From: a virus
Taxonomy: Duplodnaviria; Caudoviricetes
Direction: 5' to 3' (one strand)
Virus record (IMG/VR): IMGVR_UViG_3300015608_002119
Span: 32,001-96,000 of that record
Length of the DNA: 64,000 bases
The notes beneath the pieces are model-generated. The model worked only from the letters and a program-made list of their open reading frames with translations, was not told the DNA's origin and searched no databases. This document shows positions 34,613 to 39,741 of this stretch, one piece after another. Every line of letters begins with the position of its first letter. Position 1 is the first letter of the stretch. Both the position numbers and the translations under genes were made by a program.

Positions 34613-35310
34613 GCGTAACAAAAGCAAGTCCGCGACGTGTCCTGGTGATATCACCACACACGGACGATGAGCTGTTTGGCTTGGGTGGCACACTGCTGAA
34701 GTTGAAAGCAACAGCGCCAGACACGTCAATCAAGCTGGTTGTGATGTCGTGCAGCACACGATATCTAAGCCATCTTGGTCGCGACATCACGGCCGAGGAG
34801 CAGTGGGGCGAGTTCTCTGAGTGTGCCAAGCACCTTTCAACGGAGCCGCCGGGTCGCTATATGCTAGACAGCAGGCTTGAGCTTGAACCGTGCTATCGAA
34901 TCGTCAGGTGGTTAGACGAGCTGGTGCAAGATTTTAAACCAACGACGGTGTTCATTCCAGAGCCATCGTACCATCAGGAACACCAACTGGTATACCGGTC
35001 GTGTATTGCGGCATGCAGGCCAACGTTCGGTGAGAAGAGTATTCAGGACGTGTACTTGTATGAAATCCCAACGAGCTGCTGGTCCGGTCCGGACGGGATC
35101 TTCAAGCCAAACGTCTATGTTGACATCGCAACGACCATCGATGAGAAGGTTCGCTTGTTCAAGGAAACATACCGGTTGCAATACACAACCGACAAGCGAA
35201 ACAAGCTCGGCGAGAACGGAATCGTGTCGCACGCACAATATCGCGGCACAGAGGCGGGTCAATTGTATGCCGAATCATTCATGCTGATTCGTTCAACCGG
35301 AGTCCTATGA
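34609..35310 (+). CDS. PIG-L/LmbE family N-acetyl sugar deacetylase
   Basis: SPHTDDELFGLGG, HQEH, YEIP, PNVYVDI, RG......YAESF. Confidence 0.9.
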   Translation: MSVTKASPRRVLVISPHTDDELFGLGGTLLKLKATAPDTSIKLVVMSCSTRYLSHLGRDITAEEQWGEFSECAKHLSTEPPGRYMLDSRLELEPCYRIVRWLDELVQDFKPTTVFIPEPSYHQEHQLVYRSCIAACRPTFGEKSIQDVYLYEIPTSCWSGPDGIFKPNVYVDIATTIDEKVRLFKETYRLQYTTDKRNKLGENGIVSHAQYRGTEAGQLYAESFMLIRSTGVL

Positions 35311-36101
35311 GTTACGGAATAGACAGGATTGTTATCAGCACAGACGACTCACATTTCAGGGAGTTTGCGCATATTGTCAGCGTCGCGTGGCGCAAGGTGT
35401 TTCCGGGCGTCAAGCTCACACTTGCGTACGTTACATCAACAGCAGCACATAGGCGTAAGTTTGAGCGCGACTATGATGACGTAATGGTATTCAACCCAAT
35501 CAATGGAGTACCGGATGCCAACATGGCAAAGATAGCACGTCGTTACGCATGCACACGATACGGCAATGAGGTGTGCATGATAGAGGACATTGACACCGCA
35601 CCACTTAACAGGGATTATCACGCCAGGATCGTTTCTCAGCGAGTGCCCGGAACGCTTGGGATGGTTGGCTTGGAAGTATATGCCGGTACTCCTCATAGCG
35701 GCAAGGCACCTTCCAGCTACACGTGTGGCGAGTCGTACGTTTGGGAACGAGCAATCAACCCGAACGGCTTGGAGTTTGAGGATTGGGCGAGATCATTTAT
35801 CGGCAAACGGGTATTCGATCACAAGGAAGATATCTCGGCGCCCGCTTACCAGTTCTCCGACGAGTCACTGATGCGTGCGATTTTGTCGGAGTCCAAGTTC
35901 ACCAACATCACTCACATCAATCGCGACGCCGATCCCAGAACCGACTGGATTGACCGTAGCTGGTGGGATGTTGACGTTGCGAAACTAAAGCGAAACGAAT
36001 ACTACGTCGTCAACTTCATGCGACCGTTGGATCTTAGGAGGGCACATGACGTGCTCGATCACATTGAGAACCACATGACCTTTGAGGACCACCCAGCATG
36101 A
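35307..36101 (+). CDS. putative glycosyltransferase-like protein
   Basis: AKIARRY, CMIEDID..PL (DxD), SDE, IDRS.W. Embedded in the glycan operon. Confidence 0.55.
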   Translation: MSYGIDRIVISTDDSHFREFAHIVSVAWRKVFPGVKLTLAYVTSTAAHRRKFERDYDDVMVFNPINGVPDANMAKIARRYACTRYGNEVCMIEDIDTAPLNRDYHARIVSQRVPGTLGMVGLEVYAGTPHSGKAPSSYTCGESYVWERAINPNGLEFEDWARSFIGKRVFDHKEDISAPAYQFSDESLMRAILSESKFTNITHINRDADPRTDWIDRSWWDVDVAKLKRNEYYVVNFMRPLDLRRAHDVLDHIENHMTFEDHPA

Positions 36102-36661
36102 CAACTGTTGTTACCATACACCAACCCAGCTTCTTACCATGGATGCCATTCTTCGACAAGGTTCGCAGTGCAGACATGTACGTGGTCTTGTCTGAGTGCC
36201 AATACGAGAAGAACGGCTACCAGAACCGGTTCTTTTATCGCGGCAAGTGGCATACACTGAGCGTCAACAAGGGTATGGAACCAATCAAAAACAAGAGGTA
36301 CGTTAATCCGTACAACGACTGGGAAAAGATCAAGCTAAATCTACCAGACAAGGCGCACGTCTTGTCACAGTTTGATGATCTGATAAGTGACAATCTGCTA
36401 TTGACGAACATGGCGGTCATCAAACGTTGTCTCAGACTGCTAAACATCAACACGGCCGTAGTGTTGGATCCGGTGACAGCACTGACCGGCACTGACAGGC
36501 TGGTTGACATATGCCGGTACTATGGCGCCGATGTCTACTTGTCTGGCCCGAGCGGCAAGAGCTACATGGACACCGCACTGTTCGATCGTGCGGGTATTGC
36601 CGTCCGGTACTGTGATAGCTCTGACAGCTCCTCGCCGCACGTGCTCGACGTGCTCGGCTGA
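36098..36661 (+). CDS. WbqC-family protein
   Basis: IHQPSFLPWMPFFDK...D, QNR, TDRLVDIC...GADVYLSGPSGKSY. Confidence 0.9.
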   Translation: MTTVVTIHQPSFLPWMPFFDKVRSADMYVVLSECQYEKNGYQNRFFYRGKWHTLSVNKGMEPIKNKRYVNPYNDWEKIKLNLPDKAHVLSQFDDLISDNLLLTNMAVIKRCLRLLNINTAVVLDPVTALTGTDRLVDICRYYGADVYLSGPSGKSYMDTALFDRAGIAVRYCDSSDSSSPHVLDVLG

Positions 36662-36696
36662 CCGTCTCACAACTCCCCCGCCAAGCCACCCAATAA

Positions 36697-36775
36697 CCCG
36701 TCCTGTGCCCGATCTTTTCCAGGACGGGTTCCTGGCCGTCCGAACCATTTGGACGCCCAGGACGGGCGTATAGGA
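36697..36775 (+). other. tandem GC-rich hairpins ending in the GGCGTATAGG motif
   Basis: CCCGTCCTG...CAGGACGGG and CCTGG.CGTCCGA...TTGGACG.CCAGG inverted repeats after the WbqC stop. Confidence 0.45.
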
Positions 36776-36782
36776 GCTTGCG

Positions 36783-36965
36783 CCAAACCTAAAAATACAA
36801 CAATCATATCCGACGGTACAAGACTGCGGAACCGAGACATTACGCCTGAACGGTTACACTGTTATGGTGGTGTGGGATGACGACCTCAAACACCACAAAG
36901 AGCTCGTAGTACAAAAACTGAAAGAATTTCTCGGAGAAAACAGTGTATCCACAAAAAAAGCATAA
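36783..36965 (+). pseudogene. remnant C-terminus of a Vsr/DUF559-like (homing) endonuclease
   Basis: ETLRLNGYTVMVVWDDDLKHHKELVVQKLKEFL* with no intact N-terminus. An adjacent frame gives KYNNHIRRYKTAE. AT-rich. Confidence 0.6.
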
Positions 36966-38524
36966 GATACTGATGCTCGGTGATCATCCGTTGACGTAAT
37001 AGCGGATACAAAATTGGGTGAATTGCTGGAAAGTCCTTAGAGCTGGTTGGCCACAGCAGAGTTAGAAATGGCATATGCGACGGCTTAAAAACAATCAGAT
37101 TGGATAATCAGCAGCCAAGTCCCTGTTCAGAAATGATGGGAACGGTTCAACGACTACGGTTAGCCTAAAGCCAAATGGCCATGGCGATGATCCGACAGCG
37201 CCCAACACGATATTATCGTGATGATATAGTCTATTCCTGACAGAAATGTCACGGTAGAAAAGTGTGTACTTCTGGTGTCGGAGTGCAAAGCAGATTTCTA
37301 ATTCAAGGGTTAATTGATACTGGAAAATACACATTTAGGTGCCTTGGTGGCGCGGTAAAGCATCCAAACTACGACCCGATCGCCGTCAACCCGGACTTCA
37401 TTATCAAGCCTGTTGATGGGTTCGGCAACCACGAAGTTGTTCGGAACATCCTCGTTAATGAGAGGCCCGACGCCGTGCTCTTGTTCACAGACCCGAGACA
37501 GTTCACGTGGCTTTGGGAAATCGAAGATGAGGTGCATCAGTTCTGCCCTATCACGTACTGGCACGTTTGGGACAACGACCCTTATCCGGAGTTCAATGGC
37601 GTGTGGTACCGGTCAACGGACCTTATCAACTGCCTATCTCACAAGACGTACGAGCTCGTGCAGCCACATTTCCCCGAGAAGACCGGATATGTGCCACATG
37701 CGTTCCCTGAGAATGTTTACTTTCGTATGCCTGCCGCACAAGTCGATGAGCTCAGGCACCTCAACTTCAAGGAGCGGTCAGACTGGTTTGTTGGGTTGTG
37801 GGTTAACCGAAACGCGACCCGCAAGATGCCTAACGACGTTCTGAACGCTTGGAAGAAGTTCCTTGATGATTTGGAGGCCAAGCATGGTCATCGCAAGGCT
37901 ATGCTGATCATGCACACGGACCCCGTTGATTCTGAGGGGCCGAACCTGTTTGCGACGGTTGACATGCTCGGGATCAACGAACACGTGATGTTCTCAAACC
38001 AGAAGGTTGAGTTCCACGACATGAACGCCCTTTACAACTGCGTTGATTTTGTGGTGAACGTCAGCAAGGCAGAAGGGTTCGGTCTCGCCGCCCTCTCTGC
38101 GCTGATGGTTGGCAAGCCTCTCATTGGCCTTAAAACCGGTGGGATGACACGGCAGCTCGTTGACTACAGGGATGGCACGGAGCATGGTGTTGCGATTGAG
38201 CCTGCGGCCAGGACACTGGTTGGCAGCCAGATGGTTCCTTACATCTACGATGACCACGTGAACTATCTTGATGTTGCCGATGCTTATATGAAGCTATACG
38301 AAAGCAACCTGTCTCCGCAATGGCGTGAAGACATTGCTGCGAAGAACATCGCGTACGCACAGCACGAGTTCAACTACGGCAAGATGATCGAAGATTGGGA
38401 TCGTAGCCTCGGCGAAACAATTGACAAATTCAAAAAGCAAAAGGCCACAGGCAAGAGCAAGTGGACATGCGAACCGCTACAGCCTAGCCTTGGCAAGCGT
38501 GTAAATGTTGGAGCAGCTAAGTGA
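36943..38524 (+). CDS. glycosyltransferase family 4, spliced: exon 1 36943-36991, exon 2 37263-38524 (436 aa)
   Basis: GGAG SD plus GTG start. Joined N-terminus MYPQKKHKILMLGDHPL-CTSGVGVQ restores the GT-B first strand and Gly loop. Also NRNATRK and AEGFGLA. Confidence 0.85.
36992..37262 (+). ncRNA. group I self-splicing intron (subgroup IA-like, 271 nt, no ORF)
   Basis: P AATTGCTGGAAA 37021, Q AATCAGCAG 37106, R GTTCAACGACTA 37145, S GATATAGTCT 37223. P1 ATCCGT/GCGGAT with U-G at the splice site; P3 TTGGGTG/CGCCCAA; P8; P9 with GAAA loop; terminal G. Confidence 0.92.
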
Positions 38525-39741
38525 TGAGTAACGGTAAGTCAGTAGTTCTTAGAGGCCCGGCGCTCTCGGTAAGTGGTTATGGCACGCACTGTCGGCAGAT
38601 CGCCAAGTGGCTGTTACGCGATGCCGCTGAGCGTTATGGCCTGGACGTGACAGTTCAGCCGCTGCCATGGGGGACAACGCACTTTCTACTCGACCCAGAC
38701 CTTGAGGATGGCCTTATCGGACAGATTCTACAGGCGTCAGGCAATCAAAAGCCGTTCTATGATGTTAGCGTCCAAGTGCAACTTCCTAACGAATGGGACG
38801 CGTTTCTTGCGGGCTTTAACATCGGTGTTACCGCAGGCGTAGAGACAGAGACGTGCAACCCGGCGTGGATTACTGCGATCAACAACATGGACTTGGTGGT
38901 TGTTCCGTCTGAGTTCACAAAGCAAACCTTCATAAACACCGGAAACGTCAAGACGCCGATCGTTGTTATTCCGGAGTCGTTTCCGGAGGCATACGAGACA
39001 GCTACACCAGATGCGCTTGAAGGGCTAGATCGAGTCGAGACCGCGTTTAACTTCCTGATTGTTGGTCAACTTACCGGCAACGGCGTTGAGAACGACAGGA
39101 AGAACATCCCATACACCATGAAGTGGCTAGCTGAGACCTTCGCTGGTAACAAAGACGTTGGGGTCATCATCAAGACAAACTCTGGCGCCAACACGGAACT
39201 GGATAAGCAACACGTGCGGTCAGTGTTTGCGAAGCTCGTATCGGAGGTGCAGGGGCTTGACACAGGCGCCCGTGGGCCTACGTTCTATCTCTTGCATGGC
39301 CATATGACCGATGCAGAGATGCTCGGCCTTTACAAGCACCCGAAGGTCAAAGCGCTTGTTGCTCTTACGCACGGTGAAGGGTATGGCCTTCCGATCCTTG
39401 AGGCGTCTGCGTGTGGACTGCCGGTGATTGCTACAAACTGGTCCGGCCACCTTGATTTCTTGCGGCATGGCAAGTTCTTGAGCGTTGATAAAACCATCGG
39501 CGAAGTTCATCCGAGCCGTGTTGATGGGCAGATCTTCATGCAAGGCGCCAAGTGGGCATATCCGATCGAACAAGACGCCAAAAGGCGACTCAAGAAGTTC
39601 TACGAGGCTCCCGTGACTCCGGCGCAATGGGCGAAGGACCTCTCCAGGGCCGTGCGGCAGAAGTATTCGTTCGCCACCATATGTGACATCTACAACGACA
39701 AGCTGGGTGTGCACCTAACATCATCATCAGCGCCAACATAA
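38521..39741 (+). CDS. glycosyltransferase family 4 (GT-B)
   Basis: GPALSVSGYGTHCR, VVVPSEF, DRKNI, HGEGYGLPILEASACGLPVIATNWSGHLDFL. Confidence 0.9.
   Translation: MMSNGKSVVLRGPALSVSGYGTHCRQIAKWLLRDAAERYGLDVTVQPLPWGTTHFLLDPDLEDGLIGQILQASGNQKPFYDVSVQVQLPNEWDAFLAGFNIGVTAGVETETCNPAWITAINNMDLVVVPSEFTKQTFINTGNVKTPIVVIPESFPEAYETATPDALEGLDRVETAFNFLIVGQLTGNGVENDRKNIPYTMKWLAETFAGNKDVGVIIKTNSGANTELDKQHVRSVFAKLVSEVQGLDTGARGPTFYLLHGHMTDAEMLGLYKHPKVKALVALTHGEGYGLPILEASACGLPVIATNWSGHLDFLRHGKFLSVDKTIGEVHPSRVDGQIFMQGAKWAYPIEQDAKRRLKKFYEAPVTPAQWAKDLSRAVRQKYSFATICDIYNDKLGVHLTSSSAPT

What the first reader, a model, noticed from the sequence alone, without database searches (positions are those of the whole stretch)
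36992..37262. Hidden group IA intron splitting a glycosyltransferase gene
Seen: complete P/Q/R/S core; P1 with the U-G splice pair; P3; extra sequence between P7 and P3' (IA-type); P8; P9 with GAAA loop; terminal G. Removing 36992-37262 gives CAT CCG T|TG TGT ACT TCT GGT = H-P-L-C-T-S-G and restores the GT-B N-terminus. Unspliced exon 1 hits TAA two codons later. Established: phage group I introns mostly sit in nucleotide-metabolism, replication and some structural or lysis genes. Inference: a glycosyltransferase host is unusual and implies this GT is conserved and important enough to be a homing target; its expression depends on splicing.
Basis: partly seen in the sequence, partly recalled or inferred. 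Interest (0 to 1): 0.85.

Follow-up and report, generated by a model that had tools for sequence, protein, structure and literature searches.

The report
Self-splicing intron in phage glycosyltransferase gene
A 271-base self-splicing (group I) intron really does split a sugar-transferase gene of an uncultured jumbo phage. It is the worn-down remainder of a mobile cassette that, in related phages, also carries a DNA-cutting "homing" enzyme gene and a spare copy of the gene's first exon.

Summary
Rfam's group I intron model hits at 93.9 bits (cut-off 50). Twelve further copies sit at the same codon in related phage contigs. On the 11 copies aligned, 97.6% of pair positions are paired and 41 of 82 pairs show compensatory changes, including the P1 guide pairing at the 5' splice site.

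Intron-less homologues read ...KKHKILMLSDHPLCTSGVG.... This fixes the splice sites at U36991 and G37262 and excludes G37253. The spliced product is a 436-aa GT4-type glycosyltransferase, which public gene calls truncate to "MCTSGVG...".

The intron has no ORF. Every related locus with the intron also has, directly upstream of exon 1, a 276-307 aa zinc-finger plus Vsr-fold endonuclease gene or its remains (fold Z 11.4-11.9 to Vsr and I-Bth0305I). The window keeps only its last 63 codons, which now supply the GT ribosome-binding site.

The intron is scattered on the GT tree (at least 8 gains or losses). It can be 97% identical between GT genes that are 74% identical.

In L041, one 1,251-nt block (endonuclease gene, replacement exon 1, intron) replaces 19 nt spanning the insertion site and leaves an orphaned stub of the old exon 1.

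Verdict: a new member of a known kind, of moderate interest. The scan has not seen this intron on other DNA.

The parts
36774..36965 (+). Remnant (last 63 codons plus the TAA stop) of a free-standing zinc-finger/Vsr-fold homing-endonuclease gene. It has no start codon and no catalytic block, and it overlaps the GT start.
   Evidence: tblastn finds homologues at the same position in L002/3, L006, L009, L041, L059 and L077. The family profile A2 hits window 36834-36938 at E 1.5e-5, covering profile positions 255-289 of 291. Pfam DUF559 is only sub-threshold (E 0.076).
36933..36936 (+). GGAG ribosome-binding site for the GT, lying inside the endonuclease remnant, six nucleotides before the GTG start.
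   Evidence: Read directly from the sequence.
36943..36991 (+). GT exon 1: GTG start, 16 codons (VYPQKKHKILMLGDHP) plus the first base of the split Leu codon.
   Evidence: Translation. It matches ..PQKKHKILMLSDHP.. of intron-less homologues.
36986..37007 (+). P1 hairpin: the exon strand AUCCGU (+U36992) pairs with the internal guide sequence GCGGAU (37002-37007). The U36991.G37002 wobble marks the 5' splice site.
   Evidence: Column pair 9/29 is G-C in 6 copies and A-U in 4-5 copies, so exon CCG pairs with guide GCGG and exon CCA pairs with guide GUGG.
36992..37262 (+). Group I intron: 271 nt, no ORF, no P2, IA-type, 45% GC against 52.7% for the window.
   Evidence: Rfam 93.9 bits. Covariation on 11 copies. 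Boundaries from intron-less homologues.
37014..37205 (+). P3 (37014-20 / 37199-205), enclosing P4 (37024-29 / 37108-13), P5 with extensions P5a-d (37034-37104) and P6/6a/6b (37114-37146).
   Evidence: P3 has 2 compensatory pairs, the P5 extensions and P6a/b have many, and P4 is invariant.
37152..37231 (+). P7 pseudoknot, GACUA (37152-56) with UAGUC (37227-31). This is the helix that holds the guanosine-binding site in group I introns.
   Evidence: Invariant in all copies (helix 12). It lies within the R and S core elements aligned by Rfam.
37157..37194 (+). Extra arm between P7 and P3' (P7.1 plus P7.1a type). This is the IA-type hallmark.
   Evidence: helices 13 and 14: 12 pairs, 5 of them compensatory, 99-100% paired.
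37206..37220 (+). P8 hairpin.
   Evidence: helix 15: 4 of 6 pairs are compensatory.
37235..37254 (+). P9 hairpin with a GAAA tetraloop (37243-46).
   Evidence: helix 16: all 8 pairs are compensatory.
37262..37262 (+). Terminal guanosine (omega-G), the last intron base.
   Evidence: In all 12 full copies a G directly precedes T[G/A] of the split Leu codon.
37263..38524 (+). GT exon 2 (TG of the Leu codon, then CTSGVGVQ..., stop TGA 38522-24). With exon 1 it encodes a 436-aa GT4/GT-B glycosyltransferase.
   Evidence: Pfam Glycos_transf_1 at 33.6 bits and Glyco_trans_1_4 at 34.1 bits, both above cut-off. There are 5,166 homologues.

Best explanation
Window 36992-37262 is an ORF-less, IA-type group I intron in codon 17 (Leu) of a GT4-family glycosyltransferase gene of an uncultured jumbo phage.

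How it works, by the established group I mechanism:
1. The guide sequence GCGGAU (37002-07) pairs with the last six exon-1 bases (P1).
2. A free guanosine bound in P7 attacks after U36991.
3. The freed exon-1 3'-OH then attacks after the terminal G37262, helped by a short P10 pairing (exon-2 UGU with AUA 36999-37001).
4. This joins CCG-T to TG-TGT and yields mRNA for a 436-aa enzyme. Without splicing, translation stops after 18 codons.

Origin: the intron arrived by homing, as part of a mobile cassette made of three parts. These are a free-standing zinc-finger/Vsr-fold homing-endonuclease gene, a replacement exon 1 with its own start codon, and the intron. In intact relatives the endonuclease most likely cuts intron-less GT alleles at or near the insertion site. 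Repair then copies the cassette, and the intron keeps the gene functional and disrupts the target.

In this window the endonuclease gene has decayed to its last 63 codons. These survive because they carry the GT's ribosome-binding site. The intron here is therefore stranded and is kept only by the need to splice.

Shown: the intron, its structure, its boundaries, its patchy and laterally transferred distribution, the linked endonuclease gene and its fold, and the block insertion.
Inferred: splicing activity, the endonuclease's target, and the homing pathway.
For: Intron identity and structure:
- Rfam RF00028 at 93.9 bits against a cut-off of 50.
- It is the only group I intron in the 163-kb record.
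- 12 further copies lie at the same codon in related loci.
- Of 82 pairs in 16 helices, 97.6% of cells are paired, 41 pairs are compensatory, 0 of 500 shuffles reach this, and slid controls give 32-42%.

Splice sites:
- P1 covaries with the exon (G-C to A-U).
- Omega-G is conserved in every copy.
- P10 covaries with exon 2: U-A/G.U/U-A in the window, U-A/G-C/U-A in L002, U-A/A-U/U-A in L006, and six pairs in L041 (read).
- Intron-less homologues read ..KKHKILMLSDHPLCTSGVG...
- The spliced ORF is 436 aa.

Selection for splicing: exon 1 is intact in all 12 loci where it is held, and the window's own copy pairs in every helix apart from one C.C in P9.

Mobility:
- At least 8-9 gains or losses are needed on the GT tree.
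- Introns are 97% identical in GT genes that are 74% identical (L005/L007), and 95% against 80% (L041/L059).

Endonuclease:
- A gene or remnant lies directly upstream of exon 1 in all 12 intron-bearing loci with upstream sequence, and in only 1 (L046) of at least 52 uninterrupted loci.
- Residues 174-294 match Vsr 1cw0 (Z 11.9), 3hrl (Z 11.6) and I-Bth0305I 3r3p (Z 11.4, 96 of 97 residues aligned).
- PF18741 and DUF559 hits recur across members.

Cassette:
- L041:1744-2994 replaces L032:2985-3003, which spans the insertion site.
- The old exon-1 stub is 95% identical to the recipient-type L032.
- The new exon 1 is 93% identical to L059's and 71% to L032's.

The concept of a free-standing endonuclease working together with an ORF-less intron is described in PMC3984707.
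Against: - There is no RNA evidence.
- No endonuclease activity or target has been measured.
- The Pfam hits of the endonuclease are all below the curated cut-offs.
- One locus (L046) has the endonuclease gene next to an uninterrupted GT. The enzyme therefore either does not cut that allele or does not target this site.
- The co-conversion signal next to the intron is weak: 7 mismatches in the first 60 nt of exon 2 against 1-2 in the next windows, with other peaks further on.
- The exon-1 stub was seen in only three lineages (L041, L059, L007/8), not in the window, and not within 260 nt upstream of the endonuclease gene or remnant in L002, L005, L006, L009, L058 or L077.
- The record is about 44% complete, so an intact endonuclease copy elsewhere in this phage cannot be excluded.
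Confidence: 0.85

Rival explanations
1. The intron is real but is a dead relic. It no longer splices, and the GT is either a pseudogene or is translated from GTG 37262 as a 420-aa protein that lacks the first beta-strand, as public gene callers annotate it.
For: Gene callers start the protein at MCTSGVG in at least 11 database clusters. The endonuclease partner has decayed in the window. No RNA data exist.
Against: The window's copy keeps every core helix. Across copies the helices are maintained by compensatory changes, which requires selection on the RNA. Exon 1, with a start codon and the conserved KILxLxDHP peptide, is intact in all 12 loci where it is held. Exon 2 is an uninterrupted 420-codon frame. 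Uninterrupted homologues carry the exon-1 segment (52 loci confirmed; N-termini).
Confidence: 0.07
2. The 3' splice site is G37253, where Rfam's alignment ends. This would insert Cys-Arg-Lys-Val between HP and CTSG.
For: The Rfam model ends at 37253. The join is also in frame.
Against: No homologue carries the four extra residues. The aligned G that directly precedes T[G/A] is conserved in all copies, while the spacer after P9 varies in length and sequence. P10 forms only with the exon starting at 37263; an exon starting GUAG gives no pairing with A37001/U37000 (read).
Confidence: 0.02
3. The upstream endonuclease gene is only a neighbour that hitch-hikes. It targets some other site, or none, and the intron spreads by general recombination between co-infecting phages or by reverse splicing.
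For: L046 has the gene beside an uninterrupted GT. The target was not measured. Physical linkage alone would produce co-occurrence. Other free-standing endonuclease genes also sit in this gene cluster (GIY-YIG in L004).
Against: The association is 12 of 12 against 1 of at least 52, across at least 5 separate GT lineages. The segment replaced in L041 spans the intron insertion site. The endonuclease gene, replacement exon 1 and intron share one history that differs from that of the stub and exon 2 (89%, 93% and 95% against 73% and 80%).
Confidence: 0.15

Closest known systems
Collaborative homing systems: the ORF-less psbA intron with the free-standing F-CphI of cyanophage S-PM2, and the Aeh1 nrdA/mobE system (reviewed in PMC3984707; F-CphI in PMC6083498)
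   Same: An ORF-less phage group I intron sits in a conserved coding site, with a free-standing homing-endonuclease gene next to the interrupted gene. The intron insertion site is the presumed target, so the two move together.
   Different: The endonuclease here has a zinc-finger plus Vsr/EDxHD-type fold, not the Endo VII-like or HNH type. It lies upstream, only about 50-75 nt from the insertion site. In relatives the cassette carries its own replacement exon 1 and leaves a stub of the old one. The host gene is a glycosyltransferase. In the window the endonuclease is decayed. The target is not measured here.
Phage T4 td, nrdB and nrdD(sunY) introns (subgroup IA2), and other phage IA introns
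   Same: A phage protein-coding host gene, a P/Q/R/S core, extra pairing between P7 and P3', self-splicing expected, and insertion in a highly conserved motif.
   Different: The T4 introns carry, or once carried, their endonuclease ORF inside the intron. Here the intron is 271 nt with no ORF and no P2, and the extra element is one long arm (P7.1/P7.1a-like). From memory this resembles IA3 more than IA2. The sub-subgroup was not tested.
PhiPA3 / phiKZ-type intron in the virion RNA polymerase gene with endonuclease gp210 (PMC11620839)
   Same: It is among the closest cultured-phage matches to the intron core by DNA (75% over 136 nt). It is in a jumbo phage, and the endonuclease gene lies directly 5' of the ribozyme core.
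   Different: The host gene differs (RNA polymerase beta), and the endonuclease gene is annotated between the gene halves. A role in competition between phages was shown there, whereas nothing functional is known here.
I-Bth0305I, the EDxHD-family homing endonuclease of the recA intron of Bacillus phage 0305phi8-36 (PDB 3r3p)
   Same: The catalytic domain fold matches (Z 11.4, rmsd 2.4 A, 96 of 97 residues aligned), and both are phage homing endonucleases associated with a group I intron.
   Different: I-Bth0305I is intron-encoded. This family is free-standing, has N-terminal Cys-rich modules, shares about 15% identity, and its conserved block is D..E-x-x-G-x-Y-W-H-x-N-P rather than EDxHD.
Group I introns of huge gut 'Jug' phages (PMC12880540)
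   Same: Jumbo phages in which many genes are split by short ORF-less group I introns with stand-alone endonuclease genes nearby. Gene calls are fragmented in the same way.
   Different: That paper names terL, nrdD and DNA polymerase, and its main text does not mention glycosyltransferases. The window's record has only one intron in 163 kb.
Homing endonuclease genes that bring a replacement gene end (fungal mitochondrial atp6/cox cases, from memory; scan notes e1-5355035 and e1-5375127 on other phage GT genes)
   Same: A selfish endonuclease gene inserts into a coding gene and carries a foreign copy of the displaced gene end, leaving the old end as a relic.
   Different: Here it is the 5' end that is replaced, and an ORF-less intron lies between the replacement exon and the rest of the gene. 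The endonucleases in the scan notes are not sequence look-alikes of this one.

Membership tests
Group I catalytic intron (Rfam RF00028) | Covariance-model score above the curated gathering threshold | tested here: met
   93.9 bits against 50, E 7e-23, full model 1-253. Homologous copies in L002, L003 and L005 score 87-92 bits.
Group I catalytic intron (Rfam RF00028) | Conserved core helices P3-P9, including the P3/P7 pseudoknot, supported by covariation | tested here: met
   16 helices, 97.6% paired, 41 of 82 pairs compensatory, 0 of 500 shuffles, slid controls 32-42%. P4 and P7 are invariant and so are uninformative.
Group I catalytic intron (Rfam RF00028) | 5' splice site after a U that forms a U.G wobble with an internal guide sequence (P1) | tested here: met
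   U36991.G37002. The neighbouring pair switches from G-C to A-U together with the exon's synonymous codon.
Group I catalytic intron (Rfam RF00028) | Terminal guanosine at the 3' splice site | tested here: met
   G37262. A G is conserved at the aligned position in all copies, and the junction restores the homologues' sequence.
Group I catalytic intron (Rfam RF00028) | Guanosine-dependent self-splicing activity | not testable with these tools
Subgroup IA | Extra paired element(s) between P7 and P3' (P7.1/P7.2 or P7.1/P7.1a) | tested here: met
   37157-37194 forms a 12 + 3 bp arm with 5 compensatory pairs (helices 13 and 14).
Subgroup IA | Assignment to IA1, IA2 or IA3 with subgroup-specific models | not tested
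   Rfam has a single model. The subgroup models of Selles Vidal et al. 2025 (cited in PMC12880540) are not available here.
Vsr / EDxHD-type (PD-(D/E)xK-like) homing endonuclease | Vsr-like catalytic fold | tested here: met
   Met for the full-length relative L007: pLDDT 82; Z 11.9 to 1cw0, 11.6 to 3hrl and 11.4 to 3r3p over residues 174-294. Pfam PF18741 and DUF559 are below their cut-offs.
Vsr / EDxHD-type (PD-(D/E)xK-like) homing endonuclease | Intact catalytic block in the window's own copy | tested here: not met
   Only profile positions 255-289 of 291 survive. The D..E..GxYWH block is absent and there is no start codon. It is a remnant.
Collaborative homing (free-standing endonuclease plus ORF-less intron) | The intron lacks an ORF, and a free-standing endonuclease gene adjoins the interrupted gene | tested here: met
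   The intron is 271 nt with no + strand ORF. The endonuclease gene or a remnant lies upstream in all 12 intron-bearing loci with upstream sequence.
Collaborative homing (free-standing endonuclease plus ORF-less intron) | The endonuclease cleaves the intron-less allele at or near the intron insertion site, and the intron protects | not testable with these tools
   Indirect evidence only: the 19 nt replaced in L032 relative to L041 span the insertion site.
GT4 / GT-B glycosyltransferase (Pfam Glycos_transf_1) | C-terminal Glycos_transf_1 domain above the curated cut-off | tested here: met
   PF00534 at 33.6 bits (cut-off 26.4) and PF13692 at 34.1 bits (cut-off 27). The same holds for intron-less homologues. 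No Pfam model matched the N-terminal domain. The sugar and the acceptor are unknown.

The most novel reading that the evidence does not exclude
In the relatives, the unit [endonuclease gene + replacement exon 1 + ORF-less intron], flanked on the left by a stub of the recipient's own exon 1, is a self-contained homing cassette. The stub acts as the left homology arm and exon 2 as the right arm. The endonuclease, although outside the spliced intron, is therefore copied together with the intron into any phage that has the GT gene, whatever lies upstream.

This would be a previously undescribed solution, and a natural intermediate between free-standing endonucleases and intron-encoded ones. The window would show its end state, after the endonuclease has decayed.
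Probability: 0.45. Interest if true: 0.6.

Novelty: new member of a known kind. Interest (0 to 1): 0.45.

Why it matters
1. Annotation. This widespread jumbo-phage glycosyltransferase is mis-called in public databases as a 404-420 aa protein starting 'MCTSGVG', in at least 11 protein clusters. The true product needs a 16-residue exon 1.

2. Host-gene range. It extends phage group I introns to a glycan-building enzyme. The insertion sits in the enzyme's most conserved N-terminal motif, which marks that motif as functionally critical.

3. Mobile-element evolution. The related loci give a natural series for studying how endonucleases and ORF-less introns co-operate and decay. The series runs from an intact cassette with an exon-1 stub, through a frameshifted endonuclease and a 34-63 codon remnant, to an endonuclease without the intron.

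4. Enzyme family. The endonuclease family is small (25 clusters), has a Vsr fold and modular zinc fingers, and probably recognises a defined site of about 20 bp. This is the kind of enzyme that interests work on sequence-specific nucleases and on competition between co-infecting phages (compare PMC11620839).

Tried and rejected
- G37253 as the 3' splice site: rejected.
- RNAalifold's helix between columns 1-3 and 270-272: rejected as spurious, because the 3' strand is P7'.
- A 'large intron' reading, in which the 5' splice site lies at the end of the upstream stub and the endonuclease gene is inside the intron: rejected. The guide sequence covaries with the adjacent exon 1, L007's stub would give an A.C mismatch, and the L041 and L059 stubs lack the P1 strand altogether.
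- Apparent P5a mismatches in the window and L058 rows: an alignment register artefact. CUGGUUG (37043-49) pairs fully with CAAUCAG (37092-98) (and direct reading).
- An exon-1 stub in the window: none found in 36662-36800.
- An intact endonuclease copy elsewhere in the record: none in the 163 kb held. The record is about 44% complete.
- phmmer of the endonuclease against PDB sequences: only chance-level hits (E 0.17).
- Foldseek on the whole multi-domain model: no hit at E <= 0.001. The VIA second look on the same candidates gave the clear Vsr-fold matches.
- blastn and tblastn against cultured phages: no close GT relative (31% identity at most), and only intron-core matches.
- Co-conversion tract test: weak and not decisive.
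- Earlier scan notes: none match the endonuclease by sequence. By GT sequence, only glycan-island notes and a re-read of this same stretch came up.
Full report
**1. What is there**

The window lies in a 163,485-bp IMG/VR phage record estimated at about 44% complete, so it is probably a jumbo phage. The region sits between tail and baseplate genes in a cluster of sugar-modifying genes. These include a WbqC-like gene at 36098-36661 and two GT4-type glycosyltransferase genes at 37262-38524 and 38521-39741.

Rfam's group I intron model matches 36937-37253 on the + strand at 93.9 bits (cut-off 50, E 7e-23). It is the only Rfam hit in the window and the only group I intron in the record.

**2. Boundaries**

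Exon 1 starts at GTG 36943, six bases after a GGAG, and reads VYPQKKHKILMLGDHP plus one base. Read without splicing, it continues TTG ACG TAA.

The 120 best homologues of the exon-2 protein share 58-99% identity with it. Those that are uninterrupted read ...PQKKHKILMLSDHPLCTSGVGVQ.... Joining U36991 to U37263 gives exactly this sequence, as a 436-aa product. Joining at G37253, where Rfam's alignment stops, would insert CRKV, which no homologue has.

At least 11 database clusters start at 'MCTSGVG/MCVSGVG'. The three I fetched (L002, L003, L005) each have a group I intron directly upstream, at 87-92 bits.

**3. A family of introns at one codon**

Among 80 related viral loci and 4 assembly loci, 13 carry the intron at the same Leu codon. 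These are the window, L002/3, L005-L009, L021 (cut by its contig end), L041, L058, L059 and L077. The introns are 271-286 nt long.

At least 52 loci are uninterrupted. An nhmmer profile of the intron found no copy anywhere else in these loci.

**4. Structure**

An alignment of 11 copies (A1) gives a consensus with P1, P3, P4, P5 with a branched extension, P6/6a/6b, one long arm between P7 and P3', P8 and P9. I replaced one spurious helix with the P7 pseudoknot. The counts on the resulting structure are:
- 82 pairs in 16 helices.
- 97.6% of cells paired.
- 41 pairs changed on both sides.
- 0 of 500 shuffles as high.
- 32-42% paired when partners are slid by 1-3 columns.

P1 covaries with the exon. 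Copies whose exon ends AUCCGU have the guide GCGGAU, and copies ending AUCCAU have GUGGAU.

Every copy ends in G directly before T[G/A].

Read, the first exon-2 bases pair with the bases just 5' of the guide (P10), and this pairing also covaries. It is three pairs in the window, L002 and L006, with the middle pair G.U, G-C and A-U respectively. It is six pairs in L041, whose exon 2 starts UAGCUC. An exon starting at 37254 would form no such pairing.

The window's own copy pairs in all helices. The P5a mismatches are a register artefact, and one C.C remains in P9.

There is no P2. The arm between P7 and P3' is the IA hallmark. Its single-arm form resembles what I recall as IA3, but I could not test the sub-subgroup.

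**5. Mobility**

On a tree of the GT proteins, the 12 intron-bearing rows need at least 8-9 gains or losses (quick IQ-TREE; the careful search did not finish). Examples:
- L041 is nested among near-identical intron-less alleles.
- L006 is sister to the intron-less L004.
- L058 is sister to L057.

Intron identity is decoupled from host-gene identity: 97% against 74% for L005/L007, and 95% against 80% for L041/L059. The intron is 45% GC in a 52.7% GC window.

**6. The partner endonuclease**

The 280-nt gap before the GT start contains a 63-codon frame ending ...GYTVMVVWDDDLKHHKELVVQKLKEFLGENSVSTKKA*. Its homologues lie at the same place in other intron-bearing loci.

There they belong to a 276-307 aa gene. 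Its state varies:
- Intact in L006 (two tandem copies), L007, L008, L041, L058 and L059.
- Frameshifted in L002, L003 and L077.
- A stub in L005, L009 and the window.

All 12 intron-bearing loci with upstream sequence have the gene or its remains. Of the uninterrupted loci, only L046 does.

The family is small, at 25 clusters, some of which JGI names 'very short patch repair endonuclease'. It has Cys-rich N-terminal modules and an invariant D..E-x-x-G-x-Y-W-H-x-N-P ... W-x-x-D ... W-E block.

An AlphaFold model (pLDDT 82) matches the following over residues 174-294:
- Vsr (1cw0): Z 11.9.
- A DUF559 protein (3hrl): Z 11.6, rmsd 1.5 A.
- The I-Bth0305I homing-endonuclease catalytic domain (3r3p): Z 11.4, 96 of 97 residues aligned.

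Pfam hits (PF18741, DUF559, NUMOD3, zf-FCS) recur but, apart from zf-FCS in L058, fall below their cut-offs.

The family profile confirms that the window's remnant is homologous (E 1.5e-5). It covers only profile positions 255-289 of 291. No intact copy exists in the 163 kb held.

**7. The cassette**

L041 differs from its intron-less sister L032 by one block. L041:1744-2994 (1,251 nt) replaces L032:2985-3003 (19 nt), and that replaced segment spans the insertion site.

The block holds the endonuclease gene, a complete exon 1 with its own ATG, and the intron. Upstream of it the recipient's own exon 1 survives as a stub, MSEENTFLTPFNFKKKYKVIT*. L059 and L007/8 have such stubs too, and L007's reaches the insertion site.

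The identities separate two histories:
- The L041 stub is 95% identical to L032's native 5' end, and only 73% to L059's stub.
- The replacement exon 1 is 93% identical between L041 and L059, and 71% to L032.
- Between L041 and L059, the endonuclease genes are 89% identical, the introns 95%, and exon 2 80%.

So the cassette has its own history, and the stub has the host's.

I infer that the stub serves as the left homology arm in double-strand-break repair. Free-standing endonucleases co-operating with ORF-less introns ('collaborative homing') are described in the literature (PMC3984707). The replacement-exon layout has analogues in fungal mitochondria (from memory) and in two unverified scan notes on other phage GT genes.

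**8. Comparison and novelty**

The nearest cultured-phage relatives of the intron core are 73-77% identical over about 110-136 nt. Three of them were looked up, and they lie in a major capsid gene, a DNA polymerase gene and the phiKZ-type RNA polymerase gene.

No paper was found reporting a group I intron in a phage glycosyltransferase. However, huge phages are now known to carry many such introns: about 18.5 per genome in Jug phages, with splicing confirmed by RNA reads for 37 of 76 predicted introns (PMC12880540).

The window therefore holds a new member of a known kind. The cassette layout seen in its relatives is the more novel part.

**9. Limits**

- Splicing, endonuclease activity and the endonuclease's target are all inferred.
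- The tree is a quick search.
- Some 'intron-less' rows lack their N-terminus (L020, L054, L084).
- The stub was found in three lineages only.

Noticed in passing
L004:1403-2212: An intron-less sister allele (L004, sister of the intron-bearing L006) has a 269-aa GIY-YIG endonuclease gene inserted between the two GT genes (Pfam E 2.9e-8). This is a second, unrelated free-standing homing-endonuclease type in the same gene pair.
   Followed up: partly
L006:998-1708 and L006:1773-2660: Two tandem copies of the Vsr-fold endonuclease gene lie upstream of one intron-bearing GT. The second is 68% identical to L007's and the first 47%.
   Followed up: no
L046:2-529 with the GT motif (Lys codon of KVLML) at L046:603: This is the only locus where the endonuclease gene sits next to an uninterrupted GT. 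Its site reads GAC CAC CCA TTA GCC CCA AGC. It may be a resistant allele, a case of intron loss, or an endonuclease that arrived alone.
   Followed up: partly
Proteins P0001, P0006, P0010, P0012-P0017, P0019, P0023: Public gene calls of this GT start at 'MCTSGVG/MCVSGVG', the G of the intron end plus TG. This is a systematic truncation caused by the unrecognised intron. One is labelled as from a Spirochaetes MAG, though it looks like phage DNA.
   Followed up: partly
window 36696-36729: A 10-bp inverted repeat (ACCCGTCCTG ... CAGGACGGGT) lies just after the WbqC-like gene, in a GC-rich stretch that precedes the AT-richer remnant and intron. No T-run follows it. It may mark the end of the upstream operon or the edge of the old cassette.
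   Followed up: no
PP395634.1 (Microcystis phage Mel-JY01) 83486-84908, hit H6: The distant GT homologue (31% identity) matches in two pieces and is annotated as two 'putative glycosyltransferases'. It is possibly another split GT.
   Followed up: no
window 36945-36950 and 37004-37009: GUAUCC, just after the GT start codon, is complementary to GGAUAC, which overlaps the internal guide sequence. An alternative pairing could link translation initiation and P1 formation. This was not tested, and conservation was not checked.
   Followed up: no
L002:344-1267, L005:82-2067, window 35307-36661: The genes upstream of the GT differ between relatives: UDP-glucose dehydrogenase, methyltransferases, or WbqC. 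The GT pair is thus a conserved core in a variable glycan island, which fits a cassette that must home independently of upstream context.
   Followed up: no
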